Source: a virus
Lineage: Duplodnaviria; Heunggongvirae; Uroviricota; Caudoviricetes
Length of the DNA stretch: 4,083 nucleotides
Reading direction: 5' to 3' (one strand)
IMG/VR virus record: IMGVR_UViG_2713896781_000018
Shown here: positions 397 through 4,083 of the stretch, piece by piece
How the letters are laid out: every line of letters starts with the position of its first letter
Numbering within the stretch: position 1 is the first letter of the stretch
Made by a program: the position numbers and the translations under genes
Notes under the pieces: model-generated
Seen by the model: only the letters and a program-made list of their open reading frames with translations
Told to the model about the DNA's origin: nothing
Database searches by the model: none

Positions 397-2494
397 TACC
401 TGTATGGAGCACGGCATGTCCGGACTGGGCAGAGCGCCTGAAAAAGGGGCTGTCGATTATTCCGGCTCCGATTTATCCGGACCAGGCTGCACATGCACTG
501 GCGATTTTTAAACAACTGCGGATTGTGGATGCACCGGGTAGCCCGACATTCGGGGAGTCCTGTGCACCGTGGGTGTTTGACCTGGTGGCGGCCCTGTTTG
601 GCTCCTACGATGCGCAGACCGGTGTTCGCCATATCAAGGAAGTGTTTATCCTTATCCCCAAGAAAAACAGTAAGTCCACGCTGGCCGCGGGGATCATGAT
701 GACGGCGCTGTTACTGAACTGGCGGCAGGCGGCGGGCTACACCATTCTGGCCCCGACCGTGGAGGTGGCGGCTAACGCCTTCAACCCTGCCAGGGATATG
801 GTACGACGGGACGATGATCTGGATGACCTCTGTCAGGTGCAGACACATATCCGGACCATCACCCATCGGGTGACGGACACCACCCTGAAGGTGGTGGCAG
901 CCGATCCGAATACGGTGTCCGGTATCAAGNNNNNNNNNNNNNNNNNNNNNNNNNNNNNNNNNNNNNNNNNNNNNNNNNNTTTATCCTTATCCCCAAGAAA
1001 AACTCGAAGTCCACGCTGGCCGCGGGGATCATGATGACTGCACTGTTACTGAACTGGCGGCAGGCGGCGGGTTACACGATTCTGGCCCCGACTGTGGAGG
1101 TGGCGGCCAACGCCTTCAACCCTGCCCGGGATATGGTACGACGTGACGATGATCTGGATGACCTCTGCCAGGTACAGACCCATATCCGGACCATCACCCA
1201 CCGGGTGACGGACACCACCCTGAAGGTGGTGGCAGCCGATCCGAATACGGTGTCCGGTATCAAGNNNNNNNNNNNNNNNNNNNNNNNNNNNNNNNNNNNN
1301 NNNNNNNNNNNNNNGGACACCACCCTGAAGGTGGTGGCAGCCGATCCGAATACGGTGTCCGGTATCAAGTCCGTGGGTACGCTGATTGATGAGTTGTGGC
1401 TGTTTGGCAAGCAGTGCAAGGCGGAGGACATGTTACGTGAAGCCATAGGCGGCCTTGCCTCCCGCCCGGAAGGGTTTGTGGTGTATACGACCACCCAGTC
1501 GAATGAACCGCCCGCCGGGGTGTTCAGACAGAAACTGCAGTACGCCCGGGATGTGCGCGACGGCAAAATTCATGATCCGCACTTTCTGCCGGTGATATTT
1601 GAACACCCTCCTGAAATGGTGGAAAGCGGGGCTAACCTGCTGATGGAAAACCTCGCCATGGTCAATCCGAATCTCGGCTATTCAGTGGATGAGGCCTTTC
1701 TGTACCGGGAGTACCGTAAAGCCCGGGAAGCCGGTGAAGAGACATTCCGGGGGTTCATGTCAAAACACGCCAATGTGGAAATTGGTCTTGCCCTGCGCTC
1801 TGACCGCTGGGCGGGGGCTGATTTCTGGGAAGAGCAGGGCCGTTGTATCAGCCTGGACGATATCCTGCGTCGTGCTGATGTGGTGACGGTGGGGATTGAC
1901 GGCGGGGGCCTGGATGATCTGCTGGGAATGTACGTGACTGGCCGTGACAGGGAAACCCGCGAATGGCTGGGCTGGGGCCATGCCTGGGTGCATGAAACCG
2001 CGGTGGTCAGACGGAAGAGTGAGGCATCCCGGTTTCAGGATTTTGTGGCCTGTGGAGACATGACGATTGTCCGTCGGGTCGGGGATGACACGGCGGAAGT
2101 GGCGGAGTATGTGCGTCGTATTCATGAGGCTGAGTTACTGGATCATATCGGTATTGACCCGTCAGGTGTGGGGCAGATTCTGGATTCACTGGCGGAAGCC
2201 GGGATCCCCGATGAGAGTGTGGTGGGGATAAGCCAGGGCTGGAAACTGGGCGGGGCCATCAAAACCACCGAGCGCAAACTGGCTGAGGGAGTGCTGGTGC
2301 ATGGTGGTCAGCCACTGATGGCCTGGTGCGTTGGCAATGCCCGGGTGGAGCCTAAAGGTAACGCCATTCTTATCACCAAACAGGCCAGCGGACGGGGAAA
2401 AATTGACCCTCTGATGGCGCTCTTCAATGCGGTGTCCCTGATGTCCCTGAATCCGGAACCGAAAAAGAAAGCGTATGAGGTTTTTTTCATATAA
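393..2494 (+). CDS. terL: Phage terminase large subunit (Terminase_1 / HK97-like family), reading frame artificially broken by two 50-N gaps and a duplicated block
   Basis: Translation has a Walker-A-like stretch ([14 protein letters not shown]) in the N-terminal ATPase part and a [10 protein letters not shown] stretch typical of the start of the terminase nuclease domain; stop TAA at 2492-2494. The ORF track splits it into 393..1034 (frame 0) and 1031..2494 (frame 2) only because each N run is 50 nt (not a multiple of 3). Removing one copy of the 285-bp block and the 55-bp overlap gives about 1662 nt (about 553 aa), a normal terL size. Confidence 0.8.
645..929 (+). repeat. Copy 1 of a 285-bp block inside terL (abuts first N gap)
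   Basis: Same length and register as 980-1264. About 15 nucleotide differences in 13 codons, every one synonymous (e.g. AGT/TCG Ser, AGG/CGG Arg, CAT/CAC His); encoded peptide [12 protein letters not shown]...VSGIK is identical in both copies. Confidence 0.85.
930..979. other. Scaffold gap (50 N)
   Basis: Run of exactly 50 N characters. Confidence 0.95.
980..1264 (+). repeat. Copy 2 of the 285-bp terL block (synonymous-variant allele), between the two N gaps
   Basis: Aligns base-for-base with 645-929 apart from synonymous third-position (and one Ser-codon family) differences. Confidence 0.85.
1265..1314. other. Scaffold gap (50 N)
   Basis: Run of exactly 50 N characters. Confidence 0.95.
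1315..1369 (+). repeat. 55-bp exact repeat of the last 55 bp of both 285-bp blocks (contig-end overlap)
   Basis: GGACACCACCCTGAAGGTGGTGGCAGCCGATCCGAATACGGTGTCCGGTATCAAG occurs at 875-929, 1210-1264 and 1315-1369; the third copy runs straight into unique terL sequence. Confidence 0.85.
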
Positions 2495-2518
2495 CCCTGC
2501 TCACCCTGTAACCATCAT

Positions 2519-2540
2519 GAACCGCTGCGGCGGTTTTTTT
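2519..2540 (+). terminator. Candidate weak intrinsic terminator / attenuator hairpin with T-tract between terL and the protease-capsid ORF
   Basis: ACCGC (2521-2525) can pair with GCGGT (2530-2534) around a 4-nt loop (TGCG), extendable by flanking A-T / G-T pairs, followed directly by a run of seven T (2534-2540). Stem is short, so strength is doubtful. Confidence 0.3.
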
Positions 2541-2546
2541 ATTTTC

Positions 2547-2552
2547 AGGAGG
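2547..2552 (+). promoter_or_regulatory. Shine-Dalgarno AGGAGG for the protease-capsid ORF
   Basis: Perfect AGGAGG at 2547-2552, 5 nt upstream of GTG 2558. The ATG at 2556 is followed immediately by an in-frame TGA, so GTG 2558 is the usable start. Confidence 0.6.
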
Positions 2553-2557
2553 CTGAT

Positions 2558-4083
2558 GTGACTCTTAAACGGGCCTGTTCCCTGCTGACGGTGAAATCCT
2601 TCAGTGAGGATGAACGGGTGATCACCGGGATTGCGTCAACGCCTTCTCCGGATCGGGATGGTGACATCCTGGAGCCGGAGGGGGCGGAGTTTGGCAGTAC
2701 GATCCCGTTTCTCTGGCAGCATGACCATTCCCGCCCTGTAGGCCAGTGTACGGTGCGTCGGGTCAGGGAAGGGCTGGAAATCACGGCAATGCTGGTGAAG
2801 CCGGAGCCGGGGATGCCCTCCCAGATGGCAGCCCGGCTGGATGAGGCCTGGGCTGCCATTAAGACCGGGCTGGTCAGGGGGCTTTCTGTGGGCTTCCGGC
2901 CCCATGAATACACTTATCTGGACGGAGGCGGACTGCATTTTCTGCGCTGGGAGCTGATGGAGGTGTCTGCCGTCACCGTGCCCGCGAATGCGGAATGCAC
3001 CATCCGGACCATTAAATATTTCGACCGCCCGTTTTCTGCCGCGTCCGGCAACCGGAGACCGGTGGTGAAAATCGCATCTTCTGCCGGCGCTTCGGCACAG
3101 TCAATAACCTCTTTTCATAAGGAAAAGTCAGCAATGAATACTGGTGAACAGATTAAAAGTTTTGAAAACAAGCGTGCGGCGCTGGCAGCCTCCCTTGAGG
3201 AGATCATGAACAAAGCCGCAGAGGAAGGCCGCACACTGGATGTGGAAGAGGAAGAGCACTACGACAACACCGCAGCGGAAATCCGTCAGGTGGATGCGCA
3301 CCTGAAGCGTCTGCGTGAACTGGAAGCCGGTAAGGCCGCCACGGCACAGCCGGTGAAACAGGCCGGTAACGGGAATGTGGCCACGGTGGCTTCAGCGCCG
3401 GTGATCCGTGTTGAGCAGAAACTGGAGAAGGGGATTGGTTTCGCCCGCTTTGCCAAATCACTGGCCGCGGCTAAAGGTGTCCGCTCTGAAGCCCTGGAAG
3501 TGGCCCGTCGTCAGTATCCGGATGACAGCCGTCTGCATCATGTCCTGAAATCGGCGGTGGGGGCAGGGACCACCACGGACCCACAGTGGGCAGGCAGCCT
3601 GTCTGAATATCAGGAATATGCGCAGGACTTTATTGATTACCTGCGTCCGCAGACCATTATCGGGCGATTTGGTCAGGGCGGGATCCCTGCACTTCGTCTG
3701 GTGCCGTTCAATATCCGCGAGCATGCCCAGGTGTCCGGTGGTGCTGCCGGCTGGGTGGGGGAGGGTAAGGCCAGACCCCTGACGAAGTTTGATTTTGAGT
3801 CCATCACCTTCAGTCATGCGAAGGTGTCGGCCATTGCGGTACTGACGGAAGAGCTGATCCGCTTTTCCAGTCCGGCAGCTGATGCACTGGTCCGTAATGC
3901 GCTGGCAGAAGCGGTGGTGGCGCGTCTGGACACAGACTTTGTGGACCCGAAAAAAGCTGCAGTGGCAGATGTCTCCCCGGCGTCCATCACCCATGATGTG
4001 AAGGGCACGGCATCAACCGGTAACCCGGATGCGGATGCCGAGGCCGCGTTTGGCCAGTTTGTGACGGCAAATCTGCAGCCCAC
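2558..4083 (+). CDS. Prohead protease / major capsid protein fusion (HK97-family prohead serine protease domain N-terminal, HK97-fold major capsid protein C-terminal); 3'-partial, continues beyond window
   Basis: Translated codon by codon from GTG 2558 to base 4083 in frame 2 with no stop; absent from the ORF track, apparently because it has no stop inside the window. N-terminal ~190 aa (MTLKRACSLLTVKSFSEDERVITGIASTPSPDRDGDILEPEGAEF...LWQHDHSRPVG...GLSVGF...) resembles the HK97 prohead protease family with candidate His and Ser motifs. From the in-frame Met at 3134 (MNTGEQIKSFENKRAALAASLEEIMNKAAEEGRTLDVEEEEHYDNTAAEIRQVDAHLKRLRELEAGKA...) it resembles the charged, helical N-terminal delta/scaffolding region of HK97-type capsid proteins, then a capsid body (...AAGWVGEGKARPLTKFDFESITFSHAKVSAIAVLTEELI...). 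Confidence 0.8.
   Translation, partial: MTLKRACSLLTVKSFSEDERVITGIASTPSPDRDGDILEPEGAEFGSTIPFLWQHDHSRPVGQCTVRRVREGLEITAMLVKPEPGMPSQMAARLDEAWAAIKTGLVRGLSVGFRPHEYTYLDGGGLHFLRWELMEVSAVTVPANAECTIRTIKYFDRPFSAASGNRRPVVKIASSAGASAQSITSFHKEKSAMNTGEQIKSFENKRAALAASLEEIMNKAAEEGRTLDVEEEEHYDNTAAEIRQVDAHLKRLRELEAGKAATAQPVKQAGNGNVATVASAPVIRVEQKLEKGIGFARFAKSLAAAKGVRSEALEVARRQYPDDSRLHHVLKSAVGAGTTTDPQWAGSLSEYQEYAQDFIDYLRPQTIIGRFGQGGIPALRLVPFNIREHAQVSGGAAGWVGEGKARPLTKFDFESITFSHAKVSAIAVLTEELIRFSSPAADALVRNALAEAVVARLDTDFVDPKKAAVADVSPASITHDVKGTASTGNPDADAEAAFGQFVTANLQP
3119..3136 (+). promoter_or_regulatory. Internal Shine-Dalgarno-like AAGGA plus in-frame ATG (3134) at the protease/capsid domain boundary; possible independent start for the capsid protein
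   Basis: CATAAGGAAAAGTCAGCAATG: AAGGA at 3119-3123, 10 nt before ATG 3134, which is in frame with the fusion ORF and begins the capsid-like sequence. An out-of-frame TAA sits at 3118-3120 just before the SD, looking like a standard stop-RBS-start gene junction. Confidence 0.35.

What the first reader, a model, noticed from the sequence alone, without database searches (positions are those of the whole stretch)
3111..3136. Gene-junction-like signal buried inside the fusion ORF: out-of-frame TAA, SD and in-frame ATG
TCTTTTCATAAGGAAAAGTCAGCAATG looks like a classic stop-RBS-start boundary, but the TAA (3118-3120) is in frame 1 while the ORF is in frame 2. Frame 1 is open from 3016 to this TAA, so a single 1-nt indel in that ~100-nt stretch would end the protease exactly at this TAA. 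Either the fusion arose recently by a 1-nt indel from two separate genes, or the assembly carries an indel error, or the internal SD and ATG still drive separate initiation of free capsid protein. The last would give both fused and unfused capsid protein from one ORF.
Basis: seen in the sequence. Interest (0 to 1): 0.55.

Follow-up and report, generated by a model that had tools for sequence, protein, structure and literature searches.

The report
Internal capsid start in protease-capsid gene
The signal is real and is most likely a conserved internal ribosome-binding site and start codon, so that one phage gene makes both a protease-tagged capsid protein and the plain capsid protein; it is not a frameshift or an assembly error.

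Summary
The window is the head module of an EHEC lambdoid (Stx-type) prophage. One ORF starts at GTG 2558 and is 645 aa in complete genomes. It joins an HK97-type prohead protease, a variable linker, a helical scaffold ("delta") domain and the major capsid protein.

The reported TAAGGA (3118-3123), 10-nt gap and in-frame ATG (3134) are there. Taken alone they are not significant.

The fusion is neither an assembly error nor recent. The same frame occurs in over 1,250 E. coli records and in 630-680 aa homologs across many bacterial phyla.

The third reading, internal initiation, is strongly supported by comparison. In 53 fused homologs below 85% identity:
- The aligned codon is always ATG (48) or GTG (5).
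- A Shine-Dalgarno core lies 5-12 nt upstream in 52.
- That core sits in all three codon registers and encodes different amino acids.
- Synonymous codon choice there is skewed towards the G-rich core.
- The site lies in the least structured part of the gene.

Unfused relatives start their capsid gene at this same codon.

The out-of-frame TAA is incidental. It is the UAA of an extended SD in the E. coli clade only.

The likely mechanism is a nested gene pair, like lambda C/Nu3, but with the capsid protein as the short product. No experiment has tested this.

The parts
2519..2545 (+). Terminator-like hairpin (GAACCGC-TGCG-GCGGTTT) and T-run between terL and the fusion gene. This is context, directly upstream of the full-length start.
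   Evidence: A comparable T-run directly precedes the SD of the full-length start in many homologs.
2546..2551 (+). AGGAGG Shine-Dalgarno of the full-length ORF, 6 nt before GTG 2558.
   Evidence: Anti-SD duplex -10.3 kcal/mol (L001, identical here).
2558..2560 (+). GTG start codon of the full-length protease-linker-delta-capsid protein (645 aa in complete genomes).
   Evidence: Aligns with M1 of homologs.
2558..2977 (+). HK97-type (Peptidase S78) prohead protease domain, aa 1-140. H55 (LWQHD) and S110 (GLSVGF) are conserved.
   Evidence: Pfam PF04586 on aa 48-151. hhalign to HK97 gp4. Invariant residues. Beta-rich model segment 6-140.
2978..3133 (+). Protease C-terminal tail and linker (aa 141-192). 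It contains the conserved AASGN..PVVK motif, then a hypervariable stretch with indels.
   Evidence: pLDDT about 25 over 141-193.
3100..3160 (+). A/T-rich, weakly structured translation-initiation region (GC 33% against about 60% for the gene).
3118..3123 (+). TAAGGA, the internal Shine-Dalgarno element. The element lies across codons CAT-AAG-GAA (H-K-E).
   Evidence: An SD core at the same place in 52 of 53 homolog representatives.
3134..3136 (+). In-frame ATG (Met193), the proposed start codon of the free delta-capsid protein (453 aa).
   Evidence: Invariant in A1 and A3. ATG or GTG in 99 of 99 fused loci. Residue 1 of unfused homologs.
3140..3340 (+). Helical scaffold (delta) domain, helices aa 195-222 and 229-261.
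   Evidence: pLDDT 70-78 in this stretch. Coiled-coil-like sequence.
3134..4083 (+). Coding sequence of the delta domain and HK97-fold major capsid protein. It runs off the window end and stops 414 nt beyond in complete genomes.
   Evidence: TIGR01554 on aa 204-584 and PF05065..

Best explanation
The ORF is a nested gene pair translated from two starts in one frame.

- Ribosomes starting at GTG 2558 make a 645-aa protein: prohead protease, flexible tail/linker, helical delta (scaffold) domain, HK97-fold capsid protein.
- Ribosomes that bind the internal site (UAAGGA 3118-3123, ATG 3134, in an A/T-rich unstructured stretch) make the 453-aa delta-capsid protein alone.

Inferred steps:
- The short product is the bulk building block of the procapsid.
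- The long product co-assembles through its capsid part and so carries a limited number of protease domains into the shell.
- There the protease removes delta domains and itself, as in HK97.

What is shown: the two-domain architecture, and purifying selection on a start codon plus SD at nucleotide level.

What is inferred: actual initiation, the ratio of the two products, and the assembly role.
For: Fusion and domains:
- Pfam S78 and Phage_capsid hits. TIGR01554. hhalign to HK97 gp4 with H65 aligned to H55 and the GMSVGF serine aligned to S110.

Start codon:
- M193 is invariant among 20 and 30 enterobacterial homologs although it follows a linker with indels.
- 115 of 150 50%-cluster representatives have M in that column. 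Most of the rest have M or V within 1-3 residues. The overall Met frequency is 2.4%.
- At DNA level, 99 of 99 fused loci have ATG (94) or GTG (5).
- All five Val codons there are GTG, P = 0.003 from own-gene codon usage.

Shine-Dalgarno:
- 52 of 53 representatives below 85% identity have an SD core 5-12 nt upstream (median 8).
- The core sits in all three codon registers (36/14/2) and encodes KE, KG, QE, EE, RR, RS, LE, TE, KD and others.
- Mean anti-SD energy is -8.3, against -2.65 for 706 other internal ATGs (Mann-Whitney P = 1.5e-26). It is also stronger than at the genes' own first starts, -6.9.

Synonymous choice there favours the core:
- GAG in 34 of 42 Glu codons, against 23.1 expected.
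- GGA or GGG in 15 of 15 Gly codons, against 3.2 expected.

Structure:
- The -30..+30 window is less folded than the gene mean in 53 of 53 representatives.
- It is among the 10% least folded windows in 77% of them.

Homology of the start:
- Unfused capsid proteins begin at query residue 193 (P0262, P0266).
- Split loci use the same ATG and SD.
- Split forms are scattered among fused clades.

Other points:
- No promoter-like site was found in 2400-3400.
- The same signature occurs in three other protease-capsid fusion genes: Lactococcus c2/Nocturne116/GE1 and Microbacterium phage Anseraureola.
- The nested protease/scaffold scheme is established for lambda, HSV-1 and HFTV1 (paper 10.64898/2026.09.13.751334).
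Against: - No experimental datum (Ribo-seq, N-terminal proteomics, Western blot) for this gene was found.
- In the window's own clade the internal SD is modest (UAAGGA, -6.2) and weaker than the upstream AGGAGG (-10.3). The short product need not be in excess there.
- Homologs are phylogenetically related, so the P-values overstate independence.
- In one large subclade the core is always encoded by [KQE]-E-G after a semi-conserved LxP tail. Some protein-level constraint on those residues cannot be fully excluded.
- Elongating ribosomes from the upstream start would partly occlude the site.
Confidence: 0.8

Rival explanations
1. Non-functional relic. The SD and ATG are leftovers of an ancestral gene boundary. 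All capsid protein is made as the full-length fusion and freed by the protease.
For: - Split relatives exist with the capsid start at the same codon, so the boundary is ancestral in some sense.
- Published descriptions of similar fusions mention only proteolytic release (Nocturne116, PMC13595954).
- In the window alone the SD is not exceptional.
Against: - A relic in a hypervariable, indel-rich linker should decay. Instead the start codon is kept in 99 of 99 loci and the SD in 52 of 53 representatives, across 38-77% identity.
- Synonymous codon choice is skewed towards the core.
- Val occurs only as GTG.
- A conserved dip in RNA structure is present.
Confidence: 0.1
2. The conserved purine-rich element and the Met serve something other than initiation. 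Examples are a protein-level linker or cleavage motif (PKEG-like), or an SD-like translational pause between domains.
For: - 36 of 52 cores share one codon register and encode x-E-G in a large subclade.
- A semi-conserved V/L-x-L-x-P tail precedes it.
Against: - The core also occurs in the other two registers with unrelated residues (RR, RS, KD, KV, TG).
- In split relatives it is read in the protease's other frame (for example IPRIYS*).
- Codon choice is biased beyond amino-acid identity.
- A pause does not explain an invariant ATG or GTG at fixed spacing, nor its identity with the start of unfused homologs.
Confidence: 0.06
3. Sequencing or assembly indel, or a very recent 1-nt frameshift, joined two separate genes. 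The protease should end at TAA 3118.
For: - The window is a draft scaffold with N-runs and duplicated pieces in terL.
- Frame 1 is open from 3016 to 3120.
Against: - The frame is identical, with no indel, against complete genomes.
- 1253 E. coli records and thousands of fused homologs share it.
- The frame-2 peptide, not the frame-1 peptide, is the conserved one.
Confidence: 0.01
4. Programmed -1 frameshift on the T-run (C TTT TCA, 3111-3117). It would terminate a fraction of ribosomes at TAA 3118 and give free protease, with re-initiation at ATG 3134.
For: A P-site tRNA-Phe could re-pair on TTT one base back. The stop lies 16 nt before the ATG (seen in sequence).
Against: - No canonical X XXY YYZ heptamer is present.
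- The T-run and the out-of-frame stop are not conserved. Stops occur in 16/53 and 14/53 representatives, against a 29-30% background, and TAAGG in 3 of 53.
- The SD lies downstream of the putative slip site, not upstream of it.
Confidence: 0.02

Closest known systems
Phage lambda C / Nu3 (also HSV-1 UL26/UL26.5 and Haloferax virus HFTV1 gp17/gp17.5): nested in-frame protease and scaffold genes
   Same: - One ORF with the protease domain at the N-terminus.
- An internal in-frame start with its own ribosome-binding site yields the C-terminal assembly part without protease.
- The long form carries the protease into the procapsid (Shaw and Murialdo 1980, cited; the rest from general knowledge).
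   Different: - There the short product is a separate scaffolding protein and the capsid protein is another gene.
- Here the short product is the capsid protein itself with its built-in scaffold (delta) domain.
- The protease here is the HK97/S78 type, not the lambda C (S49-like) type or the herpes assemblin sequence family.
- The two products have not been shown experimentally here.
Phage HK97 gp4 protease and gp5 capsid protein with delta domain
   Same: - Same protease family (hhalign E 7e-6, 33% identity over 129 columns, catalytic His and Ser aligned).
- Same capsid family (TIGR01554).
- Scaffold function built into the capsid protein N-terminus.
- The protease gene lies immediately upstream of the capsid gene.
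   Different: - In HK97 the two genes are separate and in different frames. gp4 ends at 4025 and gp5 starts at 4028. The protease is recruited non-covalently.
- In HK97 the portal gene precedes the protease. Here the portal lies downstream of the capsid gene.
[quoted passage not shown]
   Same: - Same three-part architecture in one ORF.
- I find an in-frame ATG with an SD-like element, in the least structured window, exactly at the protease/scaffold boundary: c2 codon 131, Nocturne116 145, GE1 137, Anseraureola 166.
   Different: - Only distantly related sequences from Gram-positive hosts. The capsid Pfam families partly differ (PF06673, PF25209).
- The papers read describe the fusion and proteolytic release, not an internal start.
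- My evidence for these is one sequence per lineage.
NCBIfam NF045541 'prohead protease/major capsid protein fusion protein'
   Same: It is a curated family with the same annotated architecture. It gives a weak match to aa 49-269.
   Different: The score is 53 bits against a cut-off of 525, so this is a different family.
Split relatives of the same family (for example Burkholderia phage vB_FUBS1; loci L019, L023, L024, L095, L106)
   Same: - Same module order: terL, protease, capsid, small ORF, portal.
- Capsid proteins are 56-73% identical to those of fused neighbours.
- Same capsid start codon and SD.
   Different: A stop codon ends the protease before the capsid start. In L019, L095 and L106 the two genes are in the same frame, and in L095 the stop directly abuts the ATG (TAA ATG). 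In the other split loci the frames differ.

Membership tests
Peptidase S78 / HK97-family prohead protease | Match to the family profile above its curated threshold | tested here: met
   PF04586: 33.4 bits against a cut-off of 21, aa 48-151.
Peptidase S78 / HK97-family prohead protease | Reaches the NCBIfam equivalog TIGR01543 cut-off | tested here: not met
   44.8 bits against a cut-off of 59. It is a divergent member rather than an equivalog.
Peptidase S78 / HK97-family prohead protease | Catalytic His and Ser conserved | tested here: met
   - hhalign with HK97 gp4 aligns FFNH65K with LWQH55D, and GMSVGF with GLS110VGF.
- H55 and S110 are invariant in A1 and A3 and at least 90% conserved in 150 representatives.
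- Their identity as the catalytic residues is from memory of the HK97 literature.
Peptidase S78 / HK97-family prohead protease | Proteolytic activity in procapsids | not testable with these tools
   Needs biochemistry.
HK97-family major capsid protein with N-terminal delta (scaffold) domain | Match to capsid profiles above threshold | tested here: met
   - TIGR01554: 80.3 bits against 27.5.
- PF05065: 28.7 bits against 24.2.
- Direct hhalign to HK97 gp5 alone found nothing.
HK97-family major capsid protein with N-terminal delta (scaffold) domain | Helical N-terminal domain preceding the HK97 fold | tested here: inconclusive
   The AF2 model is poor overall (pLDDT 44). It does give helices 195-222 and 229-261 at pLDDT 70-78, directly after M193.
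HK97-family major capsid protein with N-terminal delta (scaffold) domain | Delta domain removed by the protease on maturation | not testable with these tools
   Needs the N-terminal sequence of virion protein.
Nested in-frame protease/scaffold gene pair (lambda C/Nu3 type) | Single ORF with an N-terminal protease domain | tested here: met
Nested in-frame protease/scaffold gene pair (lambda C/Nu3 type) | Internal in-frame start codon with its own ribosome-binding site, under selection | tested here: met
   This is comparative evidence only.
Nested in-frame protease/scaffold gene pair (lambda C/Nu3 type) | The short product is a separate scaffolding protein, distinct from the capsid protein | tested here: not met
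   The short product would be delta domain plus capsid protein (TIGR01554 on the 453-aa product). It is therefore a variant, not a member in the strict sense.
Nested in-frame protease/scaffold gene pair (lambda C/Nu3 type) | Two polypeptides demonstrated in infected cells | not testable with these tools
   No data were found in the literature searches.
NCBIfam NF045541 prohead protease/major capsid protein fusion protein | Score at or above the curated cut-off | tested here: not met
   53.1 bits against 525.
Programmed ribosomal frameshift site | Slippery heptamer and a conserved out-of-frame stop | tested here: not met
   No X XXY YYZ heptamer is present. Out-of-frame stops occur at background frequency in homologs.

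The most novel reading that the evidence does not exclude
Protease-scaffold-capsid 'fusion' genes of tailed phages in general are not simple polyproteins. They would be nested gene pairs in which a conserved internal start supplies most of the capsid protein, and the full-length form is a minor protease carrier.

This would apply to the large Gram-negative prophage family seen here, to the Lactococcus c2, Nocturne116 and GE1 groups, and to small actinobacteriophages.

Gain or loss of a stop codon in the linker (in L095 a single one, directly abutting the capsid ATG) would switch a lineage between covalent and non-covalent protease delivery. The capsid supply would not change, which would explain the repeated fused/split interconversions.
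Probability: 0.5. Interest if true: 0.65.

Novelty: new variant of a known kind. Interest (0 to 1): 0.5.

Why it matters
These genes are annotated as one protein, called either "phage major capsid protein" or "prohead protease". This holds in thousands of enterobacterial prophages, including Stx-converting phages of EHEC. The papers and annotations I could read describe such fusions as a single protein released by its own protease, which would put one protease domain on every capsid subunit.

A conserved internal start would resolve that stoichiometry problem. It would extend the classical lambda C/Nu3 and herpesvirus UL26/UL26.5 logic to capsid proteins with a built-in scaffold. It would add an unannotated 453-aa product to many genomes. 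It would also explain how lineages toggle between fused and split genes.

The idea is directly testable with initiation-site profiling or simple mutants.

Tried and rejected
- **Assembly error or recent indel.** Tested against complete genomes and distant homologs and rejected.
- **Frame-1 peptide as a lost protease C-terminus.** No resemblance to protease C-termini of split relatives. Frame 2 carries the conserved AASG..PVVK motif.
- **Relic stop.** TAAGG occurs in only 3 of 53 representatives, and out-of-frame stops are at background level.
- **Programmed frameshift on the T-run.** No conserved slippery site or stop.
- **Internal promoter.** No promoter-like site in 2400-3400. This is a weak test.
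- **Structure prediction.** The AF2 model from 30 close homologs was poor (mean pLDDT 44). I ran no fold search and used only the disorder and helix pattern.
- **PDB sequence search.** Only a marginal capsid hit (9d9w, E 0.005).
- **hhalign to HK97 gp5.** Found nothing. The capsid assignment rests on TIGR01554 and Pfam.
- **Literature.**
  - Seven full-text searches found no report of an internal start in a protease-capsid fusion.
  - Duda et al. 2013 (PMC3709472) and Podgorski et al. 2023 (PMC10071307) are not held. Prior description there cannot be excluded.
- **Moraxella phage Mcat13.** Its 'coat protein' match turned out to be an ordinary separate protease gene.
Full report
**What the window is.**
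The 4083-nt window holds four features:
- the end of a small-terminase gene (4-396);
- a large-terminase gene (393-2494) broken by two N-runs;
- a 63-nt spacer with a terminator-like hairpin;
- an ORF that starts at GTG 2558 and runs off the end.

Megablast places the ORF in lambdoid prophages of EHEC and in Stx1a-, Stx2c- and Stx2a-converting phages. In complete genomes it is one 1938-nt CDS of 645 aa. RefSeq calls it "phage major capsid protein", and some phage records call it "phage prohead protease".

The N-terminal part is a Peptidase S78 (HK97-type) prohead protease:
- Pfam 33.4 bits against a cut-off of 21.
- hhalign to HK97 gp4 gives E 7e-6, with HK97 His65 aligned to H55 and the GMSVGF serine aligned to S110.

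The C-terminal part is an HK97-family capsid protein (TIGR01554, 80 bits against 27.5).

An AlphaFold model was poor overall (pLDDT 44). It does show a beta-rich domain at 6-140, a disordered stretch at 141-193, and two long helices at 195-261 with pLDDT 70-78. These correspond to protease, tail/linker and delta (scaffold) domain. Met193 sits exactly at the start of the helical domain.

**The observation.**
All stated elements are present:
- TAA 3118-3120 is in frame 1.
- Frame 1 is open from 3016.
- TAAGGA lies at 3118-3123, followed by a 10-nt gap.
- ATG 3134 is in the ORF's frame.

In the single sequence this is not statistically remarkable. The anti-SD duplex energy is -6.2 kcal/mol. About 15% of codon positions of the same gene, and 2 of its 11 other internal ATGs, reach that value.

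One thing is locally unusual. GC falls to 33% at 3100-3159, against about 60% for the gene. The 60-nt window around the ATG is in the least-folded 1% of the gene.

**Artefact or recent indel?**
No, for four reasons.
- 1253 E. coli records cover the region. The best hits align 1584 nt to 1584 nt in one piece. Across 2990-3140 the window differs from a complete genome by three substitutions and no indel.
- Fused proteins of 644-648 aa with both Pfam domains occur at 72-77% identity in Salmonella, Enterobacter, Klebsiella, Serratia, Kosakonia, Pantoea and others.
- An exhaustive HMMER search gives 1183 cluster representatives at E below 1e-30. The best 150, at 38-54% identity, are almost all 630-680 aa and match end to end. 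Fused loci also occur in contigs from distant phyla.
- The frame-2 peptide of 3016-3117 carries the AASGN..PVVK motif shared with fused and split proteases. The frame-1 peptide looks like nothing.

**The internal start.**
The linker before Met193 is hypervariable and has indels. Even so, Met193 is invariant in the enterobacterial alignments.

Among the 150 diverse representatives, 115 have Met in that column. Most others have Met or Val within three residues. The background Met frequency is 2.4%.

I then collected DNA for 99 fused loci and reduced them to 53 representatives below 85% amino-acid identity. The results are as follows.
- **Start codon.** The aligned codon is ATG in 48 and GTG in 5. 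All five Val codons are GTG, although GTG makes up only 18-45% of Val codons in those genes (P = 0.003).
- **SD core.** A core (AAGGA, GGAGG, AAGGAGG and similar) lies 5-12 nt upstream in 52 of 53, with a median of 8 nt.
- **Register and residues.** The core sits in all three codon registers and encodes KE, KG, QE, EE, RR, RS, LE, TE, KD and others.
- **Strength.** Mean anti-SD energy is -8.3 kcal/mol. The 706 other internal ATGs average -2.65 (Mann-Whitney P = 1.5e-26). The first starts of the same genes average -6.9.
- **Synonymous choice.** Codon choice is skewed towards the core: GAG in 34 of 42 Glu codons against 23.1 expected, and GGA or GGG in 15 of 15 Gly codons against 3.2 expected.
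- **RNA structure.** The -30..+30 window is less structured than the gene mean in all 53. It is in the lowest decile in 77% of them.

Because the sequences are related, the P-values overstate independence. The pattern is nonetheless one of nucleotide-level purifying selection on a translation-initiation region.

**Relation to split genes.**
Unfused capsid homologs begin exactly at query residue 193 (P0262 and P0266; P0198 and P0229 start at 194).

Ten loci have separate protease and capsid genes, and they use the same start codon and SD.

In L019, L095 and L106 the two genes are in the same frame. L095 reads ...CAC AAG TAA ATG ACC.... In the other seven the capsid gene lies in another frame.

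Split forms are scattered among fused clades in a neighbour-joining tree of the capsid part. Each has a fused nearest neighbour at 56-73% identity.

So fused and split states interconvert repeatedly. In L095 one base change in the abutting stop codon would be enough. This is easy to understand if the capsid protein is translated from its own start in both states.

**The TAA.**
It is not conserved. TAAGG occurs in 3 of 53 representatives. Out-of-frame stops within 33 nt upstream are no commoner at the junction (16/53 and 14/53) than elsewhere (29-30%).

In the E. coli clade the TAA is simply the UAA of an extended UAAGGA match to the 16S 3' end. A programmed -1 shift on the T-run has no conserved support.

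**Mechanism proposed.**
There are two products from one frame:
- a 645-aa protease-delta-capsid protein from GTG 2558, with AGGAGG 6 nt upstream;
- a 453-aa delta-capsid protein from ATG 3134.

By analogy with lambda C/Nu3, HSV-1 UL26/UL26.5 and HFTV1 gp17/17.5 (Shaw and Murialdo 1980, cited), the long form would co-assemble and deliver a limited number of protease domains into the procapsid. The short form would build the shell.

The selected start site and the domain architecture are shown. Initiation in vivo, the product ratio and the assembly role are inferred.

In the window's clade the internal SD is weaker than the upstream one. In many other clades it is stronger. The ratio may therefore differ between lineages.

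**Comparison with what is known.**
- Protease-scaffold-capsid fusion ORFs are described. [quoted passage not shown] This protein does not belong to NF045541 (53 bits against 525).
- Nested protease/scaffold genes are classical.
- I found no report that combines the two, meaning an internal start that yields the capsid protein. Two key papers were not available.
- As a side test I examined four other fusion genes: c2 l5, Nocturne116 ORF18, the GE1 capsid gene and Anseraureola gp5.
  - Each has an in-frame ATG exactly at the protease/scaffold boundary.
  - In each the ATG follows an SD-like element at or near the 5th percentile of its own gene.
  - In each it lies in the least-structured window of the gene.
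  - Pfam's Lactococcus capsid family PF06673 begins at c2 l5 residue 131, which is that very Met.
  - These are single sequences per lineage, but they suggest the arrangement is general.

**Verdict.**
- The artefact and recent-indel readings are rejected.
- The TAA is incidental.
- The internal-initiation reading is well supported by comparison (confidence about 0.8) and awaits experiment.
- It is a new variant of a known kind (nested protease genes), of moderate interest.

Noticed in passing
window 645-1369 (N-runs 930-979 and 1265-1314): The terL gene is interrupted by two 50-nt N-runs. These flank a 300-nt segment present twice at 95% identity (645-944 and 980-1279) and a 55-nt piece present three times (875-929, 1210-1264, 1315-1369). 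It looks like a scaffolding artefact in which reads from two similar prophage copies were laid end to end, so the terL ORF as given is not real.
   Followed up: partly
window 2519-2545; also the upstream flanks of L003, L020, L025, L034, L071, L073, L077, L090, L098: A terminator-like hairpin plus T-run sits between terL and the protease-capsid gene, directly before the SD of the full-length start. A T-run in the same place recurs in many distant homologs. HK97 also has an annotated putative terminator just before its protease gene. This may be a conserved transcriptional or RNA-processing feature ahead of the head genes.
   Followed up: partly
L117 9418-10860 (c2 l5, codon 131); L118 619-2169 (Nocturne116 ORF18, codon 145); L119 777-2348 (GE1, codon 137); L121 3807-5393 (Anseraureola gp5, codon 166): Four other protease-scaffold-capsid fusion genes from Gram-positive hosts each have an in-frame ATG with an SD-like element in the least structured window, exactly at the protease/scaffold boundary. 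The c2 full-length start is TTG. Pfam PF06673 starts at c2 residue 131.
   Followed up: partly
L001 6208-8954 and L002 6208-8954 (downstream of the window): The portal gene lies downstream of the capsid gene, after a 73-aa ORF. This order is unusual compared with HK97 and lambda. RefSeq annotates the portal as 'frameshifted; incomplete' in one genome, and a Stx1a phage record annotates it as two overlapping portal CDSs (6208-7572 and 7569-8954).
   Followed up: no
proteins P0001 (1079 aa), P0123 (1094 aa), P0132 (1091 aa): Some database proteins carry about 440 extra N-terminal residues before the protease-capsid fusion. P0001 also has the large-terminase Pfam domain PF03354. They are either read-through or assembly artefacts, or terL-protease-capsid triple fusions.
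   Followed up: no
window 2556-2561: ATGTGA: an ATG followed immediately by TGA overlaps the GTG start codon of the full-length ORF by one base, giving a one-codon mini-ORF in another frame behind the same AGGAGG. Most homologs use ATG at the full-length start instead of GTG (47 of 53).
   Followed up: no
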